Shown here: piece by piece, positions 51,679 through 61,383 of the stretch
Layout: each line of letters starts with the position of its first letter
How positions within the stretch are numbered: position 1 is the first letter of the stretch
Source of the DNA: a virus
Taxonomy: Duplodnaviria; Caudoviricetes
Virus record (IMG/VR): IMGVR_UViG_3300005573_000088
Span: 5,237 to 69,236 of that record
Direction: 5' to 3' (one strand)
DNA length: 64,000 bases
Position numbers and translations under genes: made by a program
The notes under the pieces: generated by a model
Seen by the model: the letters and a program-made list of their open reading frames with translations, nothing else
Told to the model about the DNA's origin: nothing
Databases searched by the model: none

Positions 51679-52731
51679 CTATTTTTTCATTTTTTTAAAA
51701 TATTTCAACCCAAATTCTGTTATTGCCCTACCTCTTGACAAATATTTTATGATACCAAGCGACACTAACTCTGGTTCATATATTTTTGTCAATGTTTGCT
51801 CGTCTATTCCTACCATAGATGCTAATGGTTTTAATCCTATGCACCCATTCTGACTTTCTACTATCACCTCTATAATTTTTCTTCCAACTTTATCTATTCC
51901 CAACTCATCTATGTCAAGAAGGTCAAATACTTGCATTAAAACTTGATGTGTAACTTTTGTTATGTTCCTAGATACAATAAAATTTTTCAATACTCTAATT
52001 AGATTATTTGCCTTCCTTGGGATCAGTGAAGATCTCTGCGCTATTTCATTCGCTAATTCATCTGGTAAATTAAGTTCAATTTTTTTACTTGTTTGCATCA
52101 CTATACTAATAATATTTTCAATTGAATACGGATCAAGATTTAGCCTTAAATGAATCCTATCAAGCATAGGTTTTGCTATTTTCCCAATTTCTCCTGCAGA
52201 TGTACCTATTAATGTAAATGGTTTTACTGTTATATCAAAATTTAATGTTCCGTAAGTACTTGGAAAATGTAATACTGTACCTGGTGACTCCATAGGAACA
52301 TATAGCAACTCTGCAAGACTTTTCTTTAATGCATGTATTTCATCTATAAACACTATTGGAAACTGCTCTTTTTCAACTTCCTTAAAGATATTATAGATAT
52401 CTATAGGTTTTTCTATTGATCCAGCTGTAATTGTAACTATAGCCCTCTTTGCCTCACTAGCTACTAGCCATGCGAGCGTTGTTTTTCCTTGCCCTGGAAG
52501 TCCTGCAAGCAGTATATGGTCTATTTGCCTATTTTGTTTAATTGCTGCCCTGACTGTGTCCTGTAATATAGTTTTTGTTCTCGTTTGTCCCTTAAACTCA
52601 TCAAAATTAGCAGGCATCAACTCAGGCTTGACAATCTTTTTTAATTTACTAGTATGCTTACTGAATGCTTCGCCTATCGTTAGAGAATCTATTATTTTAC
52701 TCAGTGAATTTTGCATTGGGATTTCCTCCAT
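51679..52731 (-). CDS. ruvB: RuvB-like Holliday junction branch-migration ATPase
   Basis: [46 protein letters not shown]....LSRGR.IT. Confidence 0.88.
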
Positions 52732-53018
52732 ATATCAAAAAACTTTTCCCTATTTATACTTAAATGTGTATAAATTTGTGTTGTGTTCAATGACTCATGT
52801 CCTAATAGATCCTTTACCATTAGTATATCTGCCCCATTGTTAACTAACTTTGTTGCAAATGAATGCCTTAACATGTGTGGTGAAATAGACTTTCCTATGG
52901 ATTTTAATGCATATTTCCTAAGAATTAGATTTATAGCCATCCTTGACAATTCAAATAATTTACCATGATTTTCTCTACTGTAGAACTTTCGCACCCTTAG
53001 TGTTTGGCAATACATCAA
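52701..53018 (-). pseudogene. C-terminal fragment of a XerC/D-like tyrosine recombinase
   Basis: [13 protein letters not shown]...GAD...[18 protein letters not shown]; lacks the N-terminal domain and first catalytic Arg. Confidence 0.8.
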
Positions 53019-53121
53019 CCTTTATACAAGAAAGAATGGGAAGGGGGGATTTTCTATCAATAACTTTCTTGGTAAGTTTTACTATTTTGACTAAGTCTTT
53101 TGAATTAAGTGTTAATTTCAT
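52975..53121 (-). pseudogene. N-terminal stub of a second beta-clamp-like gene (48 aa)
   Basis: [35 protein letters not shown] with AAGGA SD, resembling the DnaN start (..LPIL..). Confidence 0.5.
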
Positions 53122-53149
53122 GGTTTCCTTTTTAAATGTTACTATTTTG

Positions 53150-53317
53150 TTACTGCATTAATATTTTTCTTCTGCCAGGCAGACGACGTAACCTTTCTTC
53201 AGCCAGTACCGAGCATCTTCTTCTTGACGAAATCAAACCCTCCCTTTTTGTAATAACTTTTACAAGTTTGTCTTGTTCCGGGGGTTCAACTTTTTCTTTC
53301 GGTTCTAGGCTGCGCAT
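53150..53317 (-). CDS. Hypothetical 55-aa basic peptide
   Basis: Hand-translated MRSLEPKEKVEPPEQ...ILMQ with AGGAAGGTG SD. Confidence 0.35.
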   Translation of the reverse strand: MRSLEPKEKVEPPEQDKLVKVITKREGLISSRRRCSVLAEERLRRLPGRRKILMQ

Positions 53318-53363
53318 ATTTCATCACCTTCCTTTATGGTTTTCGTTTCAACCGACATTTTAT

Positions 53364-53801
53364 TTATATCAATCCGTGCTCTCTGAAAGAGTAATACCCG
53401 TTATCAGCGATTACAATATGGTCAAGCAATTCTATGTCTATTGTTTCGAGCGCCGACTTTATTCTTTTTGTGATTTCTATGTCATGTTCGCTCGGCTTCT
53501 CGACCCCGGAAGAATGATTATGTGCCAGTATCAATCGCGTGGCATTCATCAGTAAAGCATTTTTGGCTACTTTCCTAGGATATACGGCCACCTGGTCTAT
53601 ATCGCCTTCGGACTCATATTGAAACGATATAACTACATTCGCCGAGTTGAGATAGATAGCTATGAGTTTTTCATGAACTTCATCTTTCATTTTGTTAAAC
53701 CATTCATAGACGACTGAAGGCGTTTTGAATTCCAGGCTTTGAACCTTTTTGTATCTCTTGTAGATAATCCTTGATTCTCTTAAAATACAATGATTCTGCA
53801 T
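53364..53801 (-). CDS. radC: RadC-family JAB domain protein
   Basis: EKLIAIYLN..N, VYPRKV, ILAHNHSSG...PS..D..IT, LLDHIVI..YYSF. Confidence 0.88.
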   Translation of the reverse strand: MQNHCILRESRIIYKRYKKVQSLEFKTPSVVYEWFNKMKDEVHEKLIAIYLNSANVVISFQYESEGDIDQVAVYPRKVAKNALLMNATRLILAHNHSSGVEKPSEHDIEITKRIKSALETIDIELLDHIVIADNGYYSFREHGLI

Positions 53802-53844
53802 TTGGCCTCCCTTTTATCAGTAAAAATAAAAGTACCAGACTTGT

Positions 53845-54180
53845 TCAACAGGCGCTTTCTACTAACACTTTTATTGTTTTGGGCACTTCAATCTCTTTTT
53901 CTTGCACTTCGTAGTTCTTGCAATCAACTTTAATTTTAATTGATGGAAATTGCCTATTGGAAAATTTGTAAAACTCTCTCAAGCAAGCCAACTTTTGTCT
54001 TATAGAAGATGGGTTTATGCCACTATTGAATAGATAGTTTATATACTTTTTAACAGCACTTAGCATAATCTTTCTATTTATAGACAGAAATTGCCTTAAT
54101 GTAGTTAAGTAACTACTTATTGTATTCTCCGAGCAATTTTCCATCCTTTTAGATTTAATGAAACTCTTAATTTTGCTCAT
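53845..54180 (-). pseudogene. N-terminal (SAM-like) fragment of a tyrosine recombinase
   Basis: SENTISSYLTTLRQF...SSIRQKLACLREFYKF; ends before the catalytic domain. Confidence 0.7.
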
Positions 54181-56023: not shown

Positions 56024-56368
56024 TTATATTTTATCACTAAGAATTTCAACTAATTTCTTTGTGAATTCCTCAATTCTTTTATTTTCTATGATTGTAACTG
56101 CATTTTGGATACATACAGATAGTATCTTTTTTGCCCCTATGCACTCTTTTAACAAAGGACACTTACTATCTTTTTCTATACATCCTTTCTTATTAATATT
56201 TCTTGTGATACAATCTCCTTTAGTTTGTGGAATTTTTTTATTCCAAATACTCTCCCACGCTTTGTAAATCATTTGGATGACATCATAACTTAACTCAAGA
56301 CTTCCATCATAGTTTAACGAACTTTGCTTTGCTTCTTGCGGAGACTTACTTCTGTCCTTGACTTCCAT
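56024..56368 (-). CDS. Hypothetical Cys-containing protein
   Basis: 114-aa ORF overlapping the E1 gene end. Confidence 0.5.
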   Translation of the reverse strand: MEVKDRSKSPQEAKQSSLNYDGSLELSYDVIQMIYKAWESIWNKKIPQTKGDCITRNINKKGCIEKDSKCPLLKECIGAKKILSVCIQNAVTIIENKRIEEFTKKLVEILSDKI

Positions 56369-57104
56369 TGTTTACACCTCCTTTTTCATTGTAATAATAC
56401 TTCTTTATTGCATTATTTATACTAAAAACTACCTCATAATAATTATGTCCATTCGTCATTAAATCCCATATAACATTAAATCCTATTATTGCCGACATAG
56501 CATTAGTATTAAACAACTGCCTTGTGTCCTCAGCGCAAGAGCCACTTTGGGGTTCACTTATTTCTGGATGGACATCAGACATCTTTACACTCCCCCTGGA
56601 AATAAATACCTGACCATTCGTAATATCATTAGCAATATCCACCCAAGCTACTTCAGAGTCCCATCTTGTCCCTGTAAATAATTCTCTCTCAACTATCCAC
56701 CTTGTCTCATGATTGTCAACGCAAGATACAATTACTGGCCTAGCCTCACTATACATATATGAACTTATATTAAAAATACTATTAAAATTCTCACTACTTA
56801 ATCTTTCTGTGTTGAAGTAGATTGGAACTCCAAATATTCCTGAATATCTACTTGCAAGCACATATGCTTTATTTTTTCCTAAGTCCTGCACTGCAAAGTT
56901 TTGCCTAAACATGTTCTTGGGTTCTACACTATCATTATCAACTATCATATATTTTGCAATCCTGCTGTTATCATTTAGCATAACTCTGCATATCATCGGG
57001 GCTAAGTATGCTCCTATTCCTCCTGCACCTATTTGATAAATCATACACTTGCTAAAACCTGGATACTTATACTTATACTTTTCTGTATTCATTCTTTCCT
57101 CCAC
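56346..57104 (-). CDS. ThiF/E1-like ubiquitin-activating enzyme (PRTRC ThiF-like)
   Basis: IGAGGIG, IVDNDSVEPKNMFRQNF, NKAYVLASRY, SCVDN...R; candidate catalytic Cys in QSGSCAE. Confidence 0.9.
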   Translation of the reverse strand: MEERMNTEKYKYKYPGFSKCMIYQIGAGGIGAYLAPMICRVMLNDNSRIAKYMIVDNDSVEPKNMFRQNFAVQDLGKNKAYVLASRYSGIFGVPIYFNTERLSSENFNSIFNISSYMYSEARPVIVSCVDNHETRWIVERELFTGTRWDSEVAWVDIANDITNGQVFISRGSVKMSDVHPEISEPQSGSCAEDTRQLFNTNAMSAIIGFNVIWDLMTNGHNYYEVVFSINNAIKKYYYNEKGGVNNGSQGQK

Positions 57105-57739
57105 CAGTGTTCATCAATTAACTTTTCAAATAATTTATTGTGTTCACAACTTATTGATTTTATGTTTTTATCCCAAAATTTTGGATAACTAAACTCAAAT
57201 ATTTCATCAAATTGTAATTCAATCAAATCATCACCACACTTTAATCTCCACATTGATATAATATTATCACTCTTAAATGAAATTACGCCATAGATACATA
57301 ACCTTTTTTCGTCACTATTATCAATAGAACTAAAGAATGCTCCCATTCTATTGTGACTATGAACTTCAAGAACCAACAAATCTGTTTGTTCTTTAACATA
57401 ATCATTTTTAACTTCTATACTTGCTTGTGAAACACACTGTTCTGGAATAAAAACATAATACTTTTTCTCCTCTCTACTCCAGAATATTTGGGCGTATACT
57501 TCAGAATCATGCTTCCTAAAAAAACCCACTATCTGGTAAAATAGTTCTGCTGGTATCTTACTATTTTTCCACACTAAACCTTCTTTTAACTCAAGCAACT
57601 GGGGAACTTTTGAACAATGCAGATTAGCCCTAAAAACTTCGTTATTTTGGACTCTCATTACTCCTGACTTTGTTACCAAAAACACCAACTTACTTTCCAG
57701 CTGAGACTTGTCCTTAAAGAGCTCAACTTTACTTTCCAT
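57089..57739 (-). CDS. Prokaryotic JAB/MPN peptidase (PRTRC protein A-like)
   Basis: SEVYAQIFW, IPEQ.VS.ASI, EVHSHNRMGAFFSSIDNSDE. Confidence 0.88.
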   Translation of the reverse strand: MESKVELFKDKSQLESKLVFLVTKSGVMRVQNNEVFRANLHCSKVPQLLELKEGLVWKNSKIPAELFYQIVGFFRKHDSEVYAQIFWSREEKKYYVFIPEQCVSQASIEVKNDYVKEQTDLLVLEVHSHNRMGAFFSSIDNSDEKRLCIYGVISFKSDNIISMWRLKCGDDLIELQFDEIFEFSYPKFWDKNIKSISCEHNKLFEKLIDEHWWRKE

Positions 57740-57754
57740 AAACTACCTCCTTTT

Positions 57755-58390
57755 TTATTTTAAATCTATTAAGTCCCAATATTCCTTAAATGATTTATAC
57801 TTAACTAAAAGATCATTTGGAAATAACTTTCTACTTCCAAGGTTCATTAAAAAGTCCCATGTGTTTGCATATCCTTTTACTTTATTTGAAATTAACTCTT
57901 TTGTAAATGGCATACTCCAGAACTTATCGGCTATATTGTGTACTGTTATATCATGGTTTTCACCAAGACATATATAATCTCCACCTGCACTTGAATTTGG
58001 AAATGGGAACTCATAAAGAGAAAAATTTATGCCTGTGGGCAATGCTGGCAAACTATCACATGCAAATACTGAAACTTTGTTGATTACTCTATTGTATATT
58101 GTGACAAAAAACATCACATTCGGTGCAACTATTTCTAATTTTTTAATGTTTTTGTCACTATCTCGATAAAATGTAGCTAATTTTCTCTCTGCCCTATATA
58201 TTGCAAAGCATATTTTGTTACTACTACCTGACTTAATTGCATATGTCCCATAAGGAACTTGACAATATTCAAAGTCAATACCTTCTAATAATATTTTTGC
58301 AAAACTTTTTGCTGTTAACCAAACTATTTTTTTATTAGTCGTATCATAAATTTTTACTCCACTGTTTAAAATAGAAACTCTATAAGCCAT
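57755..58390 (-). CDS. Prokaryotic E2-like protein (family D/PRTRC protein B-like)
   Basis: VAPNVMFFV, LYEFPFPNS, YICLG (catalytic Cys position), FWSMPFT. Confidence 0.72.
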   Translation of the reverse strand: MAYRVSILNSGVKIYDTTNKKIVWLTAKSFAKILLEGIDFEYCQVPYGTYAIKSGSSNKICFAIYRAERKLATFYRDSDKNIKKLEIVAPNVMFFVTIYNRVINKVSVFACDSLPALPTGINFSLYEFPFPNSSAGGDYICLGENHDITVHNIADKFWSMPFTKELISNKVKGYANTWDFLMNLGSRKLFPNDLLVKYKSFKEYWDLIDLK

Positions 58391-58889
58391 GTTGCTCCCT
58401 CCATTTTCTATTAAATTTTTCCTGTATACTTTCCTCTTTTACCTCATTTACCTCATGTTGTTCTTCTTCATACTCTCTTCTTATATCGTTTAATTTATAT
58501 AAATCACTTATGAAATTTTCATTTAATATGTAATCCTCAAATATATTAACAATGCAATAGCCATATTCATTAACTTTAAATCCTTTTTCCTTAAAAAAAT
58601 TAATACGATCAATATTATCTGTTCCTAAATAAATTCCAACTATAAGATTTGTTCTTTCTATTTTTGGAAAATAAAAATAATCACTAATTTCCTCCGAAAA
58701 TAACTTATTTCTTTTTGCTCTTAGATAGTATTTTACATAACCATATCCTTTACTATATCTAAATGTTCTACTCATAATCTTCTTTATGTTTAATTTTTTA
58801 AATGACTTTAATTTGTTGTTATTTTTTAAGAATAACTTTATCTGTAATGTTGTAATCAAATTAAGTCCAAACTCTTTACTTAATTTCAT
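58380..58889 (-). CDS. Hypothetical protein within Ub-like cluster
   Basis: 169-aa ORF between Ubl and E2. Confidence 0.5.
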   Translation of the reverse strand: MKLSKEFGLNLITTLQIKLFLKNNNKLKSFKKLNIKKIMSRTFRYSKGYGYVKYYLRAKRNKLFSEEISDYFYFPKIERTNLIVGIYLGTDNIDRINFFKEKGFKVNEYGYCIVNIFEDYILNENFISDLYKLNDIRREYEEEQHEVNEVKEESIQEKFNRKWREQHGL

Positions 58890-58901
58890 ATATTTTCCTC
58901 T

Positions 58902-59123
58902 TTACAAAATTTCATTTATTTCAACTCTTTCTGCATTAAAGTCATATATTCCCTCTTCAGGAAAACATTTTAACTTTTCAATTAAGTAACGGTACTTTTC
59001 TTTTGTTAACTTACTTGCATACTTTTTAGGACTCCTACAAACCCTAATTACATATGCCATAGCATTCCTTGACTCAGAAATTTGAATGTTTTCATTAATA
59101 AAATCATCATACTTAATTTCCAT
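58902..59123 (-). CDS. Hypothetical protein within Ub-like cluster
   Basis: 73-aa ORF with AGGAGG SD. Confidence 0.55.
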   Translation of the reverse strand: MEIKYDDFINENIQISESRNAMAYVIRVCRSPKKYASKLTKEKYRYLIEKLKCFPEEGIYDFNAERVEINEIL

Positions 59124-59140
59124 ACTTAATCCTCCTTATC

Positions 59141-59167
59141 CCAAGCAAGCCTAACTGACTTGCTTGG
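59141..59167 (-). promoter_or_regulatory. 9-bp intergenic hairpin downstream of Ubl
   Basis: ccaagcaag/cttgcttgg perfect inverted repeat, no U-tract on the coding strand, adjacent to the next SD. Confidence 0.5.
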
Positions 59168-59178
59168 ACAAAGAAGGA

Positions 59179-59373
59179 CTATCCTTTATGGGCAGCTACT
59201 CGCCGAAACTCTACCATCGTTCCGTTTTCGTGCTGTATGAACTGTGCGTTGTCAATCTCTGGATATGCATCCTTTAGAGCGTCCCTATACTCAGCCTCAC
59301 TTCCCTGTGGCGCGTCAATCTCCTGCCCGTCAGGTAACCTGATTTTAATCATATCTACCATTTTATCACTCAC
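59179..59373 (-). CDS. Prokaryotic ubiquitin-like protein (PRTRC protein C-like)
   Basis: 64 aa; ...RDALKDAYPEIDNA...VEFRRVAAHKG-stop; YPE and terminal KG are typical of this family. Confidence 0.8.
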   Translation of the reverse strand: MSDKMVDMIKIRLPDGQEIDAPQGSEAEYRDALKDAYPEIDNAQFIQHENGTMVEFRRVAAHKG

Positions 59374-59388
59374 CTCCCTTTTTTAATT

Positions 59389-59625
59389 TTAATCCATATG
59401 TTTACTTATGCAATCATCACATATGGGTTTACTATCATCCTGGATAGTTACTGCTTGTTTACCACAATACTCACATAATTTACCTCCTTTCTTTGCCCAC
59501 TTCCAGAATTTTTTTTCTAACTTTTTATCTCCATTGAGCAATCTTTCTACTATTCTGTCATGGGATTTTACTGGATACATTGCCTCTACAAATTCCTGAA
59601 GTAATTTTTTCACTGCACCCATCAA
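59389..59625 (-). CDS. Small Zn-ribbon protein
   Basis: CEYC and CDDC. Confidence 0.5.
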   Translation of the reverse strand: MMGAVKKLLQEFVEAMYPVKSHDRIVERLLNGDKKLEKKFWKWAKKGGKLCEYCGKQAVTIQDDSKPICDDCISKHMD

Positions 59626-61354: not shown

Positions 61355-61383
61355 ATTATAGCAGAAATATATAAATAAGTCAA
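61355..61383 (-). promoter_or_regulatory. Strong leftward sigma70 promoter
   Basis: TTGACT-17-TATAAT with extended TG. Confidence 0.75.

What the first reader, a model, noticed from the sequence alone, without database searches (positions are those of the whole stretch)
56346..59373. Complete phage-encoded prokaryotic ubiquitin-like conjugation module (Ubl-x-x-E2-JAB-E1)
Seen: in transcription order there is a 64-aa Ubl ending ...AAHKG, two unknown ORFs, an E2-like protein (YICLG), a JAB peptidase (HSH...S..D) and a ThiF/E1 (GAGGIG, RQNF), all in the early arm. Established: this four-component set matches PRTRC-type prokaryotic Ub-like systems, and bacterial E1/E2/JAB systems (CBASS Cap2/Cap3, Bil, Bub) conjugate proteins during anti-phage defence. 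Inference: carried by a phage without parB or a defence context, it may tag host proteins for takeover or counter host ubiquitination, for example by JAB removal of Ubl from virion proteins. The two intervening ORFs are candidate substrates or E3-like adaptors. A 9-bp hairpin after Ubl could raise Ubl mRNA levels relative to the enzymes.
Basis: partly seen in the sequence, partly recalled or inferred. Interest (0 to 1): 0.8.

Follow-up and report, generated by a model that had tools for sequence, protein, structure and literature searches.

The report
Phage-encoded ubiquitin-like protein tagging cassette
A 69-kb hot-spring phage carries an intact, minimal kit for attaching a small ubiquitin-like protein to other proteins; every such bacterial kit tested so far defends against phages, and what this phage-borne type does has never been tested.

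Summary
Six co-directional, tightly packed minus-strand genes encode:
- a 60-64 aa beta-grasp Ubl ending ...AAHKG-stop;
- two orphan ORFs (73 and 169 aa);
- a Prok-E2_D/PRTRC_B-type E2 (conserved Cys141);
- a JAMM/JAB peptidase (H127-S-H129...S137..D140);
- a single-domain ThiF-type E1 with all adenylation residues and a conserved S-C190-x-E.

It is a divergent, ParB-less phage version of "operon type 6d" (Iyer et al. 2006), also called the PRTRC cassette. That type was predicted from genomes, and I found no experimental test of it.

The gene order Ubl-x-x-E2-JAB-E1 recurs in Bacillus phages WH1, Edson and KLEB27-3, in the jumbo prophage pBtic235, and in 22 of the 80 best IMG/VR loci. 366 viral contigs encode an E1 relative. 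In relatives the tag gene is a head-to-tail poly-Ubl of 2-7 units with a C-terminal cap, or a Ubl fused to a C-terminal extension. Here it is already mature.

The "9-bp hairpin" is really a 28-bp structure that buries the next gene's Shine-Dalgarno and AUG. Hairpins or terminators after Ubl recur in relatives, which fits more Ubl than enzymes.

The two middle ORFs have no detectable relatives. Targets and biological role are unknown.

This scan has already found the same cassette family on other phage DNA (at least 11 genomes).

The parts
59179..59373 (-). Ubl (ubiquitin-like tag). 64 aa from GTG 59373, but more likely 60 aa from ATG 59361. It ends ...RRVAAHKG directly followed by the stop codon, so it is already mature with a free C-terminal Gly.
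   Evidence: ORF. P0005 is the 60-aa public call. The AF2 model has pLDDT 81.5 and a beta-grasp order of elements. VIA-align top hits are Ub, ISG15, SUMO and MoaD at Z 4.3-5.9. phmmer gives E 3e-20 to poly-Ubl P0006. Its WH1 homologue gp211 passes TIGR03738 PRTRC_C. Invariant in the family alignment: P38, N42, K63.
59120..59191 (-). Composite RNA stem-loop spanning the last Ubl codons, the stop codon, the intergenic spacer and the start of the next gene. An 11-bp lower stem pairs UAG+UCCUUCUU with the AAGGAGGAUUA Shine-Dalgarno of ORF73. A further 5-bp stem pairs the ORF73 AUG with the CAU of the Ubl His codon.
   Evidence: strand folding gives dG -38.1 kcal/mol, z -6.58, 0/200 shuffles. Inverted repeat I1 is at 59127-59149 / 59159-59181. 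Sequence. Comparable hairpins or terminators directly follow stand-alone Ubl genes in WH1, Edson, pBtic235, L007, L010, L015, L020, L032, L050, L063 and L070.
58902..59123 (-). ORF73 (x1): orphan small protein in the position held by a small acidic protein in relatives, or by a C-terminal extension fused to the Ubl.
   Evidence: ORF. No usable match in Pfam, NCBIfam or PADLOC; the only PHROGs match is a weak one to an unannotated family (phrog_5190, E 0.0045). No similarity to x1 proteins of other loci. The position is conserved.
58380..58889 (-). ORF169 (x2): orphan protein directly upstream of E2, whose start it overlaps by 11 nt. Relatives have a 210-567 aa protein in this position.
   Evidence: ORF. 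No family match. ESM Atlas gave no usable feature hit and its own model has pLDDT 0.46. No similarity to x2 clusters.
57755..58390 (-). E2-like conjugating enzyme of the Prok-E2_D / PRTRC_B family, 211 aa. The motif FPNSSAGGDYIC(141)LG resembles the HPN...C motif of E2s.
   Evidence: tblastn to WH1 gp214 (2e-5) and Edson. Alignment A1 has invariant P129, F130, N132, C141, G143. hhalign against PRTRC_B-like A5 gives 94.2% probability, E 1.2e-7. Relatives P0002 and the pBtic235 protein pass the PF14460 gathering score. ESM Atlas: 30/30 feature hits are PF14460 at score 0.96, structure TM 0.70. My own AF2 model failed with pLDDT 33.
57089..57739 (-). JAB/JAMM metallopeptidase, 216 aa, with an N-terminal JAB-N-like part. 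Predicted role: deconjugation, and in relatives processing of precursors.
   Evidence: Pfam Prok-JAB 28.6 bits, above the gathering score. TIGR03735 PRTRC_A 46.7 bits, below the cut-off. Alignment A7 has invariant H127, S128, H129, S137, D140, W87, K61.
56346..57104 (-). E1-like ThiF-family adenylating enzyme, 252 aa, with a single adenylation domain. Its start overlaps the JAB gene's end by 16 nt.
   Evidence: Pfam ThiF 51 bits. TIGR03736 PRTRC_ThiF 67.3 bits is the best hit but lies below the cut-off of 144.75. Alignment A6 has invariant G26xG28G29xG31, R40, D58, R67-Q68, N78-K79, D130-N131 and S189-C190-x-E192.
61355..61383 (-). Context: the best sigma-70-like promoter of the region, at the head of the minus-strand arm about 2 kb upstream of the cassette.
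   Evidence: TTGACT-17-TATAAT, 11 of 12 matches with a TG extension. No minus-strand terminator-like site lies between it and the cassette.

Best explanation
This is an intact phage-encoded ubiquitin-like conjugation machine of the 'type 6d / PRTRC' kind, in its most compact form.

Inferred mechanism, from what is established for E1/E2/JAMM families:
1. The E1, probably acting as a homodimer because it has only one adenylation domain, adenylates the free C-terminal Gly of the Ubl with ATP.
2. The E1 takes the Ubl as a thioester on Cys190.
3. The Ubl passes to Cys141 of the E2.
4. The E2, alone or with the two orphan proteins as adaptors, transfers it to lysines of target proteins.
5. The JAB peptidase reverses the tagging. 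In relatives it also cuts poly-Ubl or Ubl-fusion precursors after each ...KG. This phage's Ubl needs no processing.

A large stem-loop that buries the ribosome-binding site and AUG of the next gene makes translation of the downstream genes depend on, and run lower than, Ubl translation. The tag would then be made in excess over the enzymes.

The cassette lies about 2 kb behind the strongest promoter of the replication/early arm. Relatives sit on phages, plasmids and ICEs. I therefore think it most likely acts early in the infected cell, on host or phage proteins, to help the incoming element establish itself (takeover or counter-defence). The targets and this role are inference, not shown.
For: - All four catalytic or functional signatures are intact and conserved across distant relatives: the E1 adenylation residues plus Cys, the E2 PxN...C motif, the JAMM HxHx7Sx2D motif, and the Ubl beta-grasp with an invariant K-G end.
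- The best family matches are PRTRC_A and PRTRC_ThiF and Prok-E2_D. PRTRC_C is reached through the WH1 homologue.
- The order Ubl-x-x-E2-JAB-E1 is conserved in WH1, Edson, KLEB27-3 and pBtic235. It also occurs in 22 of 80 IMG/VR loci.
- In relatives the tag is a head-to-tail poly-Ubl, each unit ending AGTKG, with a 4-16 aa cap, or a Ubl with a 77-106 aa extension. This only makes sense if a peptidase frees a C-terminal Gly for activation, which is the logic of ubiquitin.
- The genes are tightly packed with overlapping stops and starts.
- The SD-sequestering structure has z -6.6. Hairpins or terminators follow Ubl in 11 other loci.
- A promoter heads the arm and no terminator lies in between.
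Against: - There is no biochemical evidence for any member of this operon type. I found none in 10 literature searches.
- The window's own E2 and Ubl do not hit Pfam or NCBIfam models directly. The assignments rest on profile-profile, transitive and model-based evidence.
- My AF2 model of the E2 failed, and Foldseek gave no significant PDB hit for the Ubl.
- PRTRC_A and PRTRC_ThiF scores are well below the curated cut-offs.
- The His that Iyer et al. describe as absolutely conserved after the E2 Cys is not conserved in the phage clade.
- The two middle ORFs have no relatives, so their part in the machine is unsupported.
- Only DNA runs hold the sequence, so there is no expression data.
- Early timing is inferred from position only.
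Confidence: 0.72

Rival explanations
1. The biochemistry is the same, but the role is the opposite. The cassette is a defence or exclusion system carried by the phage. It would tag the virion proteins of competing phages, as the host Bil system tags central tail fibres, and so protect the infected cell or lysogen from superinfection.
For: All experimentally studied bacterial E1/E2/JAB/Ubl systems (Bil, CBASS Cap2/Cap3) act in anti-phage defence, according to the papers read. Relatives sit on a plasmid prophage (pBtic235) and on plasmids (176 plasmid records with an E1 match), which are places where defence cargo is common.
Against: The cassette is a conserved, syntenic module of virulent-looking large phages rather than variable island cargo. 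Here it sits in the co-directional early/replication arm. Among the PADLOC defence models, only the E1's Rossmann region matched anything.
Confidence: 0.15
2. Self-tagging of the phage's own virion proteins. The Ubl would be conjugated to capsid or tail proteins as a decoration, cross-link or shield, for example occupying lysines that a host Bil-type system would otherwise hit. The JAB would trim the tags.
For: The WH1 record annotates the poly-Ubl gene gp211 as 'virion structural protein', as it does the nearby gp208. In the Bacillus phages the cassette lies next to such genes.
Against: I could not trace the basis of the WH1 annotation, because no paper on it is in the library. In this window the cassette is in the arm opposite the structural genes, which argues against late co-expression with virion proteins.
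Confidence: 0.1
3. This is not protein conjugation. The Ubl would be a sulfur carrier (thiocarboxylate) or the E1 a peptide/RiPP-type adenylating enzyme, as in ThiS/ThiF, MoaD/MoeB or ThiF-like RiPP enzymes.
For: The E1 also matches ThiF/MoeB models at lower scores. The WH1 poly-Ubl gives weak SAMP1 and MoaD matches.
Against: An E2 with a conserved Cys and a JAMM peptidase are strictly linked to the E1 in all relatives. The tag ends K-G, not G-G. Poly-Ubl precursors have no place in sulfur transfer. There is no rhodanese domain on the 252-aa E1, and no sulfurtransferase or cofactor gene is adjacent.
Confidence: 0.03

Closest known systems
Operon type 6d of Iyer, Burroughs & Aravind 2006 (Genome Biol 7:R60, PMC1779556), equal to the PRTRC cassette (NCBIfam TIGR03734-03742; Pfam Prok-E2_D PF14460, Prok-JAB PF14464, ThiF PF00899)
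   Same: It has the same four protein families: a small beta-grasp Ubl with C-terminal Gly, an E2 lacking the classical His of HPN, a JAB with an N-terminal extra domain carrying a conserved Trp, and a single-domain ThiF-type E1. It also has rapidly diverging extra proteins between Ubl and E2. The best HMM hits of JAB and E1 are PRTRC_A and PRTRC_ThiF. The paper's own species list already includes B. cereus and B. thuringiensis; I did not check whether those entries are pBtic235-type elements, though a B. thuringiensis one carries the cassette.
   Different: There is no ParB and no match to PRTRC_E, PRTRC_F or PRTRC_B at E <= 0.1. All direct scores are below the equivalog cut-offs. The carrier is a 69-kb virus with terminal repeats, not a plasmid or ICE. 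The His said to be conserved after the E2 Cys is not kept. The proteins are the shortest in the set (E1 252, JAB 216, E2 211 aa). The function of the known type has itself never been tested, as far as I could find.
Same cassette in cultured large Bacillus phages vB_BceM_WH1 (gp211-216), Edson and vB_BauM_KLEB27-3 (gp199-194), and in the B. thuringiensis jumbo prophage pBtic235
   Same: The gene order Ubl-x1-x2-E2-JAB-E1 is identical. The E2, JAB and E1 are homologous at 22-36% identity. A hairpin or terminator lies right after the Ubl gene.
   Different: Their tag is a poly-Ubl of 4-5 units (KLEB27-3 is cut at the locus edge, at least 3 units seen) with a 6-16 aa C-terminal cap. Their x1 (115-147 aa) and x2 (509-559 aa) are much larger and unrelated in sequence to ORF73 and ORF169. 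Their JAB proteins carry long C-terminal extensions.
Bil systems (BilABCD, type I and II) and CBASS Cap2/Cap3: experimentally shown bacterial Ubl conjugation in anti-phage defence
   Same: They use the same chemistry and the same four roles (Ubl, E2, JAB deubiquitinase, E1). In type II Bil the Ubl has a conserved Gly followed by removable residues.
   Different: In the one solved type II example (E. aridi), the Bil E1 has inactive plus active adenylation domains and an inserted Cys domain with its catalytic Cys at residue 417. This E1 is a 252-aa single domain. Cap2 is an E2-E1 fusion acting on a CD-NTase, and none is present here. The E2 belongs to Pfam family D rather than the Bil or Cap2 types. 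PADLOC models matched only the E1's nucleotide-binding region. The carrier is the phage, not the host.
Eukaryotic polyubiquitin and ubiquitin-fusion genes (analogy for the relatives' tag genes)
   Same: Relatives encode 2-7 near-identical head-to-tail units, each ending in the Gly to be activated, plus a short cap, or a Ubl fused to another polypeptide.
   Different: This window's gene is a single unit that ends at the Gly. The units are about 57 aa and end K-G, not G-G. No sequence relationship to ubiquitin was detected beyond the fold.
Phage lambda gpK (JAB/MPN) and gpI (Ubl domain) in tail-tip assembly
   Same: This is a phage-encoded JAB peptidase acting on a Ubl domain (meeting report; Iyer 2006).
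   Different: There is no E1 or E2 in lambda. The Ubl is part of a tail protein and is only cleaved off. The genes lie in the tail module, whereas here they are in the early/replication arm.

Membership tests
Operon type 6d / PRTRC cassette | Small beta-grasp Ubl with conserved C-terminal Gly (PRTRC_C, TIGR03738) | tested here: met
   The direct HMM gives no hit. However, phmmer gives E 3e-20 to poly-Ubl P0006. P0006 is 75% identical to WH1 gp211, which scores 73.6 bits against the 45.95 cut-off with 5 stretches. The beta-grasp model has pLDDT 81.5. The protein ends K-G-stop.
Operon type 6d / PRTRC cassette | E2-like protein of family Prok-E2_D / PRTRC_B with conserved Cys and no HPN histidine | tested here: met
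   There is no direct Pfam or NCBIfam hit. hhalign of the phage alignment against PF14460-bearing PRTRC_B-like proteins gives 94.2% probability, E 1.2e-7, with the Cys aligned. Relatives pass the PF14460 gathering score. ESM Atlas: 30/30 hits are PF14460, structure TM 0.70. The motif is FPN...C141.
Operon type 6d / PRTRC cassette | Absolutely conserved His C-terminal to the E2 catalytic Cys (Iyer 2006) | tested here: not met
   The cyanobacterial PRTRC_B-like proteins keep H200. No His is invariant after C141 in the phage alignment A1; the invariant residues there are D155, F157, P161, F162.
Operon type 6d / PRTRC cassette | JAB peptidase with JAMM motif and an N-terminal extra domain carrying conserved Arg and Trp (PRTRC_A) | tested here: met
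   Prok-JAB scores above the gathering score. PRTRC_A is the best NCBIfam hit but lies below the cut-off, 46.7 against 101.8 bits. H127, H129, S137, D140 and W87 are invariant. The Arg of GV(F/M)RV is kept in 5 of 6 sequences.
Operon type 6d / PRTRC cassette | ThiF-family E1 of the PRTRC_ThiF type (TIGR03736) | tested here: inconclusive
   It is the best NCBIfam hit, but at 67.3 bits against a cut-off of 144.75. WH1 gp216 reaches 102.7 bits. The adenylation residues and a Cys are conserved.
Operon type 6d / PRTRC cassette | ParB homologue in the cassette (the 'PR' of PRTRC) | tested here: not met
   No ParB_N (PF02195) match at E <= 1 in the whole 69-kb virus record. The control search matched 11 of 14 reference genomes.
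Operon type 6d / PRTRC cassette | [quoted passage not shown] | tested here: inconclusive
   Two ORFs occupy the position, but neither matches any NCBIfam model at E <= 0.1 or the accessory proteins of other loci.
Bil (BilABCD) systems | E1 with inactive plus active adenylation domains and an inserted Cys domain, as in the solved E. aridi type II E1 | tested here: not met
   The E1 is 252 aa with one ThiF domain.
Bil (BilABCD) systems | E2 of the BilB type (a Cys with a nearby conserved His in types I and II; type II adds the CEHH motif) | tested here: not met
   The E2 groups with Pfam family D / PRTRC_B. No conserved His follows the Cys. No Bil-specific HMM was available to me, so this rests on the motif and on family D membership.
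CBASS type II (Cap2/Cap3) | E2-E1 fusion protein next to a CD-NTase and an effector | tested here: not met
   E2 and E1 are separate genes with JAB between them. PADLOC 'E1-E2' models match only residues ~18-90 of the E1. No neighbour gave a CD-NTase match.
ThiS/MoaD sulfur-carrier pairs | C-terminal Gly-Gly carrier, and an E1 acting with sulfurtransferase or cofactor-synthesis genes | tested here: not met
   The tag ends K-G, and K63 is invariant. The neighbours are an E2 and a JAB. No rhodanese domain is on the E1.

The most novel reading that the evidence does not exclude
Phages, not only their hosts, run a ubiquitin-like conjugation system. Made early in infection, it would tag host proteins, for example defence or core machinery, or cap the phage's own lysines. 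It would thereby take over the cell or blunt host Ubl-based immunity such as Bil. That would be the first viral E1-E2-Ubl pathway in prokaryotes and the mirror image of the bacterial defence systems. The poly-Ubl precursors of relatives would be a second, independent polyubiquitin-type gene design.
Probability: 0.3. Interest if true: 0.85.

Novelty: new variant of a known kind. Interest (0 to 1): 0.62.

Why it matters
Ubiquitin-like conjugation in bacteria has recently been shown to be an antiviral weapon (Bil, CBASS Cap2/Cap3). The type 6d/PRTRC branch was predicted in 2006, and I found no test of it.

This window, together with its relatives, shows that the branch is largely a property of mobile elements:
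- 366 IMG/VR contigs encode an E1 relative.
- 22 of the best 80 IMG/VR loci carry the full ordered set.
- Several cultured Bacillus phages and an inducible jumbo prophage carry the cassette.

The open question of what a virus does with its own E1/E2/Ubl/DUB becomes directly testable in Bacillus.

The hot-spring phage gives the smallest version: a pre-matured 60-aa tag and enzymes of 211-252 aa, presumably thermostable. That is attractive for biochemistry and structure work.

The relatives' poly-Ubl and Ubl-fusion genes also offer a prokaryotic or viral parallel to eukaryotic polyubiquitin and ubiquitin-fusion genes.

Tried and rejected
I used tblastn against phage records and IMG/VR loci instead.
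- An AF2 model of the E2 from a 4-sequence alignment failed (pLDDT 33) and was not used.
- A profile search of the E2 alignment against PDB sequences gave nothing (best E 0.79).
- Foldseek of the Ubl model against the PDB gave no hit at E <= 0.001 (best 0.06; NEDD8, protein G, protein L).
- Word-based protein searches found only the E2 itself, then 4 family members.
- IMG/VR scans seeded with the E2, the Ubl monomers, a poly-Ubl or the E2 alignment found no confirmed relatives. The tblastn confirmation against the divergent window protein is probably too strict. The E1 alignment worked.
- blastn of the region against phage records gave no match.
- ORF73 and ORF169 gave nothing by any route: nothing usable in Pfam, NCBIfam, PADLOC or PHROGs, nothing usable in the ESM Atlas for ORF169, and no similarity to positional counterparts by blastp, HMM or shuffled Smith-Waterman (x2 against L007 x2 Z = 1.4). 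My hhalign loop returned empty lines and is not counted.
- The ORF downstream of E1 (56024-56368) is not conserved among loci, so I dropped it as a seventh component.
- No RNA holder was listed among the sequencing runs, only two hot-spring DNA runs.
- No paper on the WH1 or KLEB27-3 annotations, and none on PF14460 function, was found in the library.

Full report
**1. What is there**

The window is most of a 69,236-bp virus record with direct terminal repeats. It comes from hot-spring metagenomes. Strand composition splits it into a plus-strand late arm and a minus-strand arm from about 61.4 kb down to about 30 kb.

At the stated coordinates the minus strand carries six tightly packed ORFs:

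| Coordinates | Length | Name used here |
|---|---|---|
| 59179-59373 | 64 aa | Ubl |
| 58902-59123 | 73 aa | ORF73 / x1 |
| 58380-58889 | 169 aa | ORF169 / x2 |
| 57755-58390 | 211 aa | E2 |
| 57089-57739 | 216 aa | JAB |
| 56346-57104 | 252 aa | E1 |

- The gaps between genes are 55, 12, -11, 15 and -16 nt.
- The GTG start of the first ORF lies inside its own GGGAGGTG ribosome-binding site. The ATG at 59361 (60 aa) is more likely the real start and equals the public gene call P0005.

**2. The enzymes**

JAB:
- It passes the Pfam Prok-JAB gathering score (28.6 bits against 25).
- Its best NCBIfam hit is PRTRC_A.
- In an alignment with six relatives, H127-S-H129, S137 and D140 (the JAMM motif) and W87 are invariant.

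E1:
- It passes Pfam ThiF (51 bits).
- Its best NCBIfam hit is PRTRC_ThiF, at 67.3 bits, below the cut-off of 144.75.
- The nucleotide loop GxGGxG, R40, D58, R67-Q68, N78-K79, D130-N131 and an S-C190-x-E motif are invariant. It therefore looks like an active adenylating enzyme with a candidate thioester cysteine.

E2:
- The 211-aa protein has no direct family hit.
- It matches Bacillus phage WH1 gp214 and its Edson counterpart over 96% of its length.
- The alignment shows invariant P-F-x-N...C141-x-G, close to the HPN...C motif of E2 enzymes.
- Relatives pass Pfam Prok-E2_D: P0002 at 39.7 bits and the pBtic235 protein at 29 bits.
- The phage alignment matches cyanobacterial PRTRC_B-like proteins by hhalign at 94% probability, E 1.2e-7, with the Cys aligned.
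- In the ESM Atlas all 30 feature hits carry PF14460 (score 0.96), and the Atlas's own model matches a Prok-E2_D cluster at TM 0.70.
- My own AF2 model failed.

**3. The tag**

- A full HMMER scan of 1.8 billion representatives found 13 relatives.
- Two are monomers ending AHKG or SHKGV.
- Most of the others are tandem arrays of 2-7 units of about 57 aa. Each unit ends AGTKG, AQNKS or AANKG, and most arrays carry a few extra residues after the last unit.
- P0006 is 75% identical to WH1 gp211. That protein passes the PRTRC_C cut-off with five stretches.
- The AF2 model of the window's protein (pLDDT 81.5) has the beta-beta-alpha-beta-beta order of a beta-grasp and a floppy tail.
- Foldseek was not significant.
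- Nearly all of the top 50 rows of the Foldseek-independent VIA search are ubiquitin, ISG15, SUMO, FAT10, Fubi or MoaD (Z 4.3-5.9, rmsd 2.1-4.5 Å over 48-64 residues). That Z range alone is middling. The uniformity of the list plus the sequence link is what I rely on.

**4. Synteny**

- WH1 (gp211-216), Edson, KLEB27-3 (gp199-194) and the B. thuringiensis jumbo prophage pBtic235 all have poly-Ubl, x1, x2, E2, JAB, E1 in that order.
- A scan of IMG/VR with the E1 alignment found 366 contigs.
- I made local HMMs from the sequences above and applied them to the 80 best loci. The orders found were:

| Order | Loci |
|---|---|
| UBL-E2-JAB-E1 | 22 |
| E2-JAB-E1 | 2 |
| E1-x-E2 (a human-gut phage cluster; my HMMs saw no JAB or Ubl) | 48 |
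| JAB-E1...E2 | 3 |
| E1-E2-UBL | 3 |
| E1 alone | 2 |

- Across these loci the tag gene takes three forms:
  - a monomer ending KG-stop, as here;
  - a poly-Ubl with a 4-16 aa cap;
  - a Ubl followed by a 77-106 aa extension. Several of these loci (L006, L037, L080, L085) have only one gene before E2, which suggests that x1 can be fused to the tag.
- The last two forms need a peptidase to expose the Gly. That is the ubiquitin logic, and it argues for conjugation rather than sulfur transfer.

**5. The two middle ORFs**

- Nothing usable matched in any library, and the ESM Atlas gave nothing usable for ORF169.
- They show no similarity to positional counterparts, which themselves fall into several unrelated clusters.
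- Their position is conserved but their sequence is not. Calling them adaptors or substrates is speculation.

**6. The hairpin**

- The 9-bp repeat is the core of a 28-bp composite structure (dG -38.1 kcal/mol, z -6.6; arms).
- Its lower stem pairs the Ubl stop codon plus UCCUUCUU with the AAGGAGGAUUA ribosome-binding site of ORF73.
- A further stem pairs the ORF73 AUG with the CAU of the Ubl His codon.
- There is no U-run, so it is not a classical terminator.
- I read it as translational coupling with attenuation. A ribosome finishing the Ubl gene opens the site, and the downstream genes, which are chained by overlaps, are made at a lower rate.
- In 11 other loci a strong hairpin, often with a U-run, directly follows a stand-alone Ubl gene. 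It is missing where the Ubl is fused to an extension (the z values there come from mononucleotide shuffles).
- The structure itself is a computed result. Its effect on expression is inferred.

**7. Context**

- The best sigma-70-like promoter of the region (61383-61355, 11 of 12 matches plus TG) heads the arm. No minus-strand terminator-like site lies between it and the cassette.
- Downstream come a DNA ligase-like gene and other replication-type genes.
- No ParB is present in the record.
- Early expression is inferred from position. No RNA run was listed.

**8. Comparison with what is known**

- The set corresponds to operon type 6d of Iyer, Burroughs and Aravind 2006, which equals the TIGRFAM PRTRC cassette. 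I found no experimental work on it.
- PRTRC appears in the library only as an annotation.
- A 2026 preprint reports PRTRC protein B of a Phocaeicola prophage as a target of a diversity-generating retroelement.
- A 2021 jumbo-phage survey by Iyer, Aravind and colleagues does not mention a ubiquitin-like conjugation, JAB or ThiF system.
- Bil and CBASS Cap2/Cap3 share the chemistry but differ in E1 architecture, E2 family and carrier.
- Lambda gpK/gpI share only the JAB-cuts-Ubl step.
- Strict PRTRC membership fails on three counts: ParB is absent, all scores are below cut-off, and the E2 His is not kept. I file this as a divergent, phage-borne variant that most likely works like the predicted 6d system.

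**9. Earlier notes of this scan**

After reaching these conclusions I found that the scan had already reported the same cassette family on other phage DNA, in at least 11 genomes, with the same closest-known assignment.

New in this window:
- the minimal, pre-matured form in a 69-kb hot-spring phage;
- the SD-sequestering structure and its recurrence;
- the Ubl-extension fusions.

**10. Verdict**

- The biochemical mechanism is likely (about 0.7).
- The biological role is unknown. I favour an early-acting establishment or counter-defence function over phage-carried exclusion, virion self-tagging or sulfur transfer.

Noticed in passing
window 52701-54180 (minus strand): A RadC-like JAB gene (53364-53801; Pfam RadC 136.5 bits) sits between two pieces of a tyrosine recombinase. 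One piece is an N-terminal SAM-like fragment (53845-54180). The other is a C-terminal catalytic fragment covering only profile positions 104-169 of 172 (52701-53018). The integrase looks split or decayed around the RadC gene.
   Followed up: partly
L006:4120-4650, L012:3161-3718, L016:4292-4729, L080:4409-4855, L083:2867-3319, L085:3862-4380: In these plasmid and viral loci the Ubl domain (ending AGTKG or similar) continues into a 77-106 aa extension. In several of them (L006, L037, L080, L085) only one gene separates it from E2. This suggests that the small x1 protein can be made as a Ubl fusion, reminiscent of eukaryotic ubiquitin-ribosomal protein fusions. Several of the extensions and stand-alone x1 proteins end in a short hydrophobic motif (..GF..DFI).
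   Followed up: partly
L014, L021-L067 and similar (IMG/VR, many from one human-gut data set): About 48 of the 80 loci have a second architecture: E1 (about 228 aa), a conserved 283-aa protein, then a Prok-E2_D-like E2 (about 205 aa) and small ORFs. My HMMs recognised no JAB or Ubl there. A divergent JAB or tag may be hidden among the small neighbours.
   Followed up: partly
L003:2039-2938 (Bacillus phage vB_BceM_WH1 gp211): The five-unit poly-Ubl gene is annotated 'virion structural protein' in the GenBank record, as is gp208 nearby. If that rests on virion mass spectrometry, it would point to Ubl on virions. I could not find the source.
   Followed up: partly
window 59389-59625 (minus strand): A 78-aa ORF with a C-terminal CxxC...CxxC zinc-ribbon-like motif ends 15 nt before the Ubl gene. 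It has only weak sub-threshold zinc-ribbon hits. The best-matched relative, L007, has no co-directional ORF in that position, and conservation elsewhere was not checked.
   Followed up: no
window 56024-56368 (minus strand): A 114-aa Cys-rich ORF overlaps the E1 stop by 23 nt, so it is probably translationally coupled to the cassette. ORFs in this position in other loci are unrelated to it and to each other.
   Followed up: yes
preprint 10.64898/2026.10.01.756045 (not in the window): A Phocaeicola vulgatus prophage is reported to diversify its 'PRTRC system protein B' (the E2) with a diversity-generating retroelement, alongside its receptor-binding protein. If that holds, the E2 of such cassettes may be a target-recognition surface under arms-race selection.
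   Followed up: no
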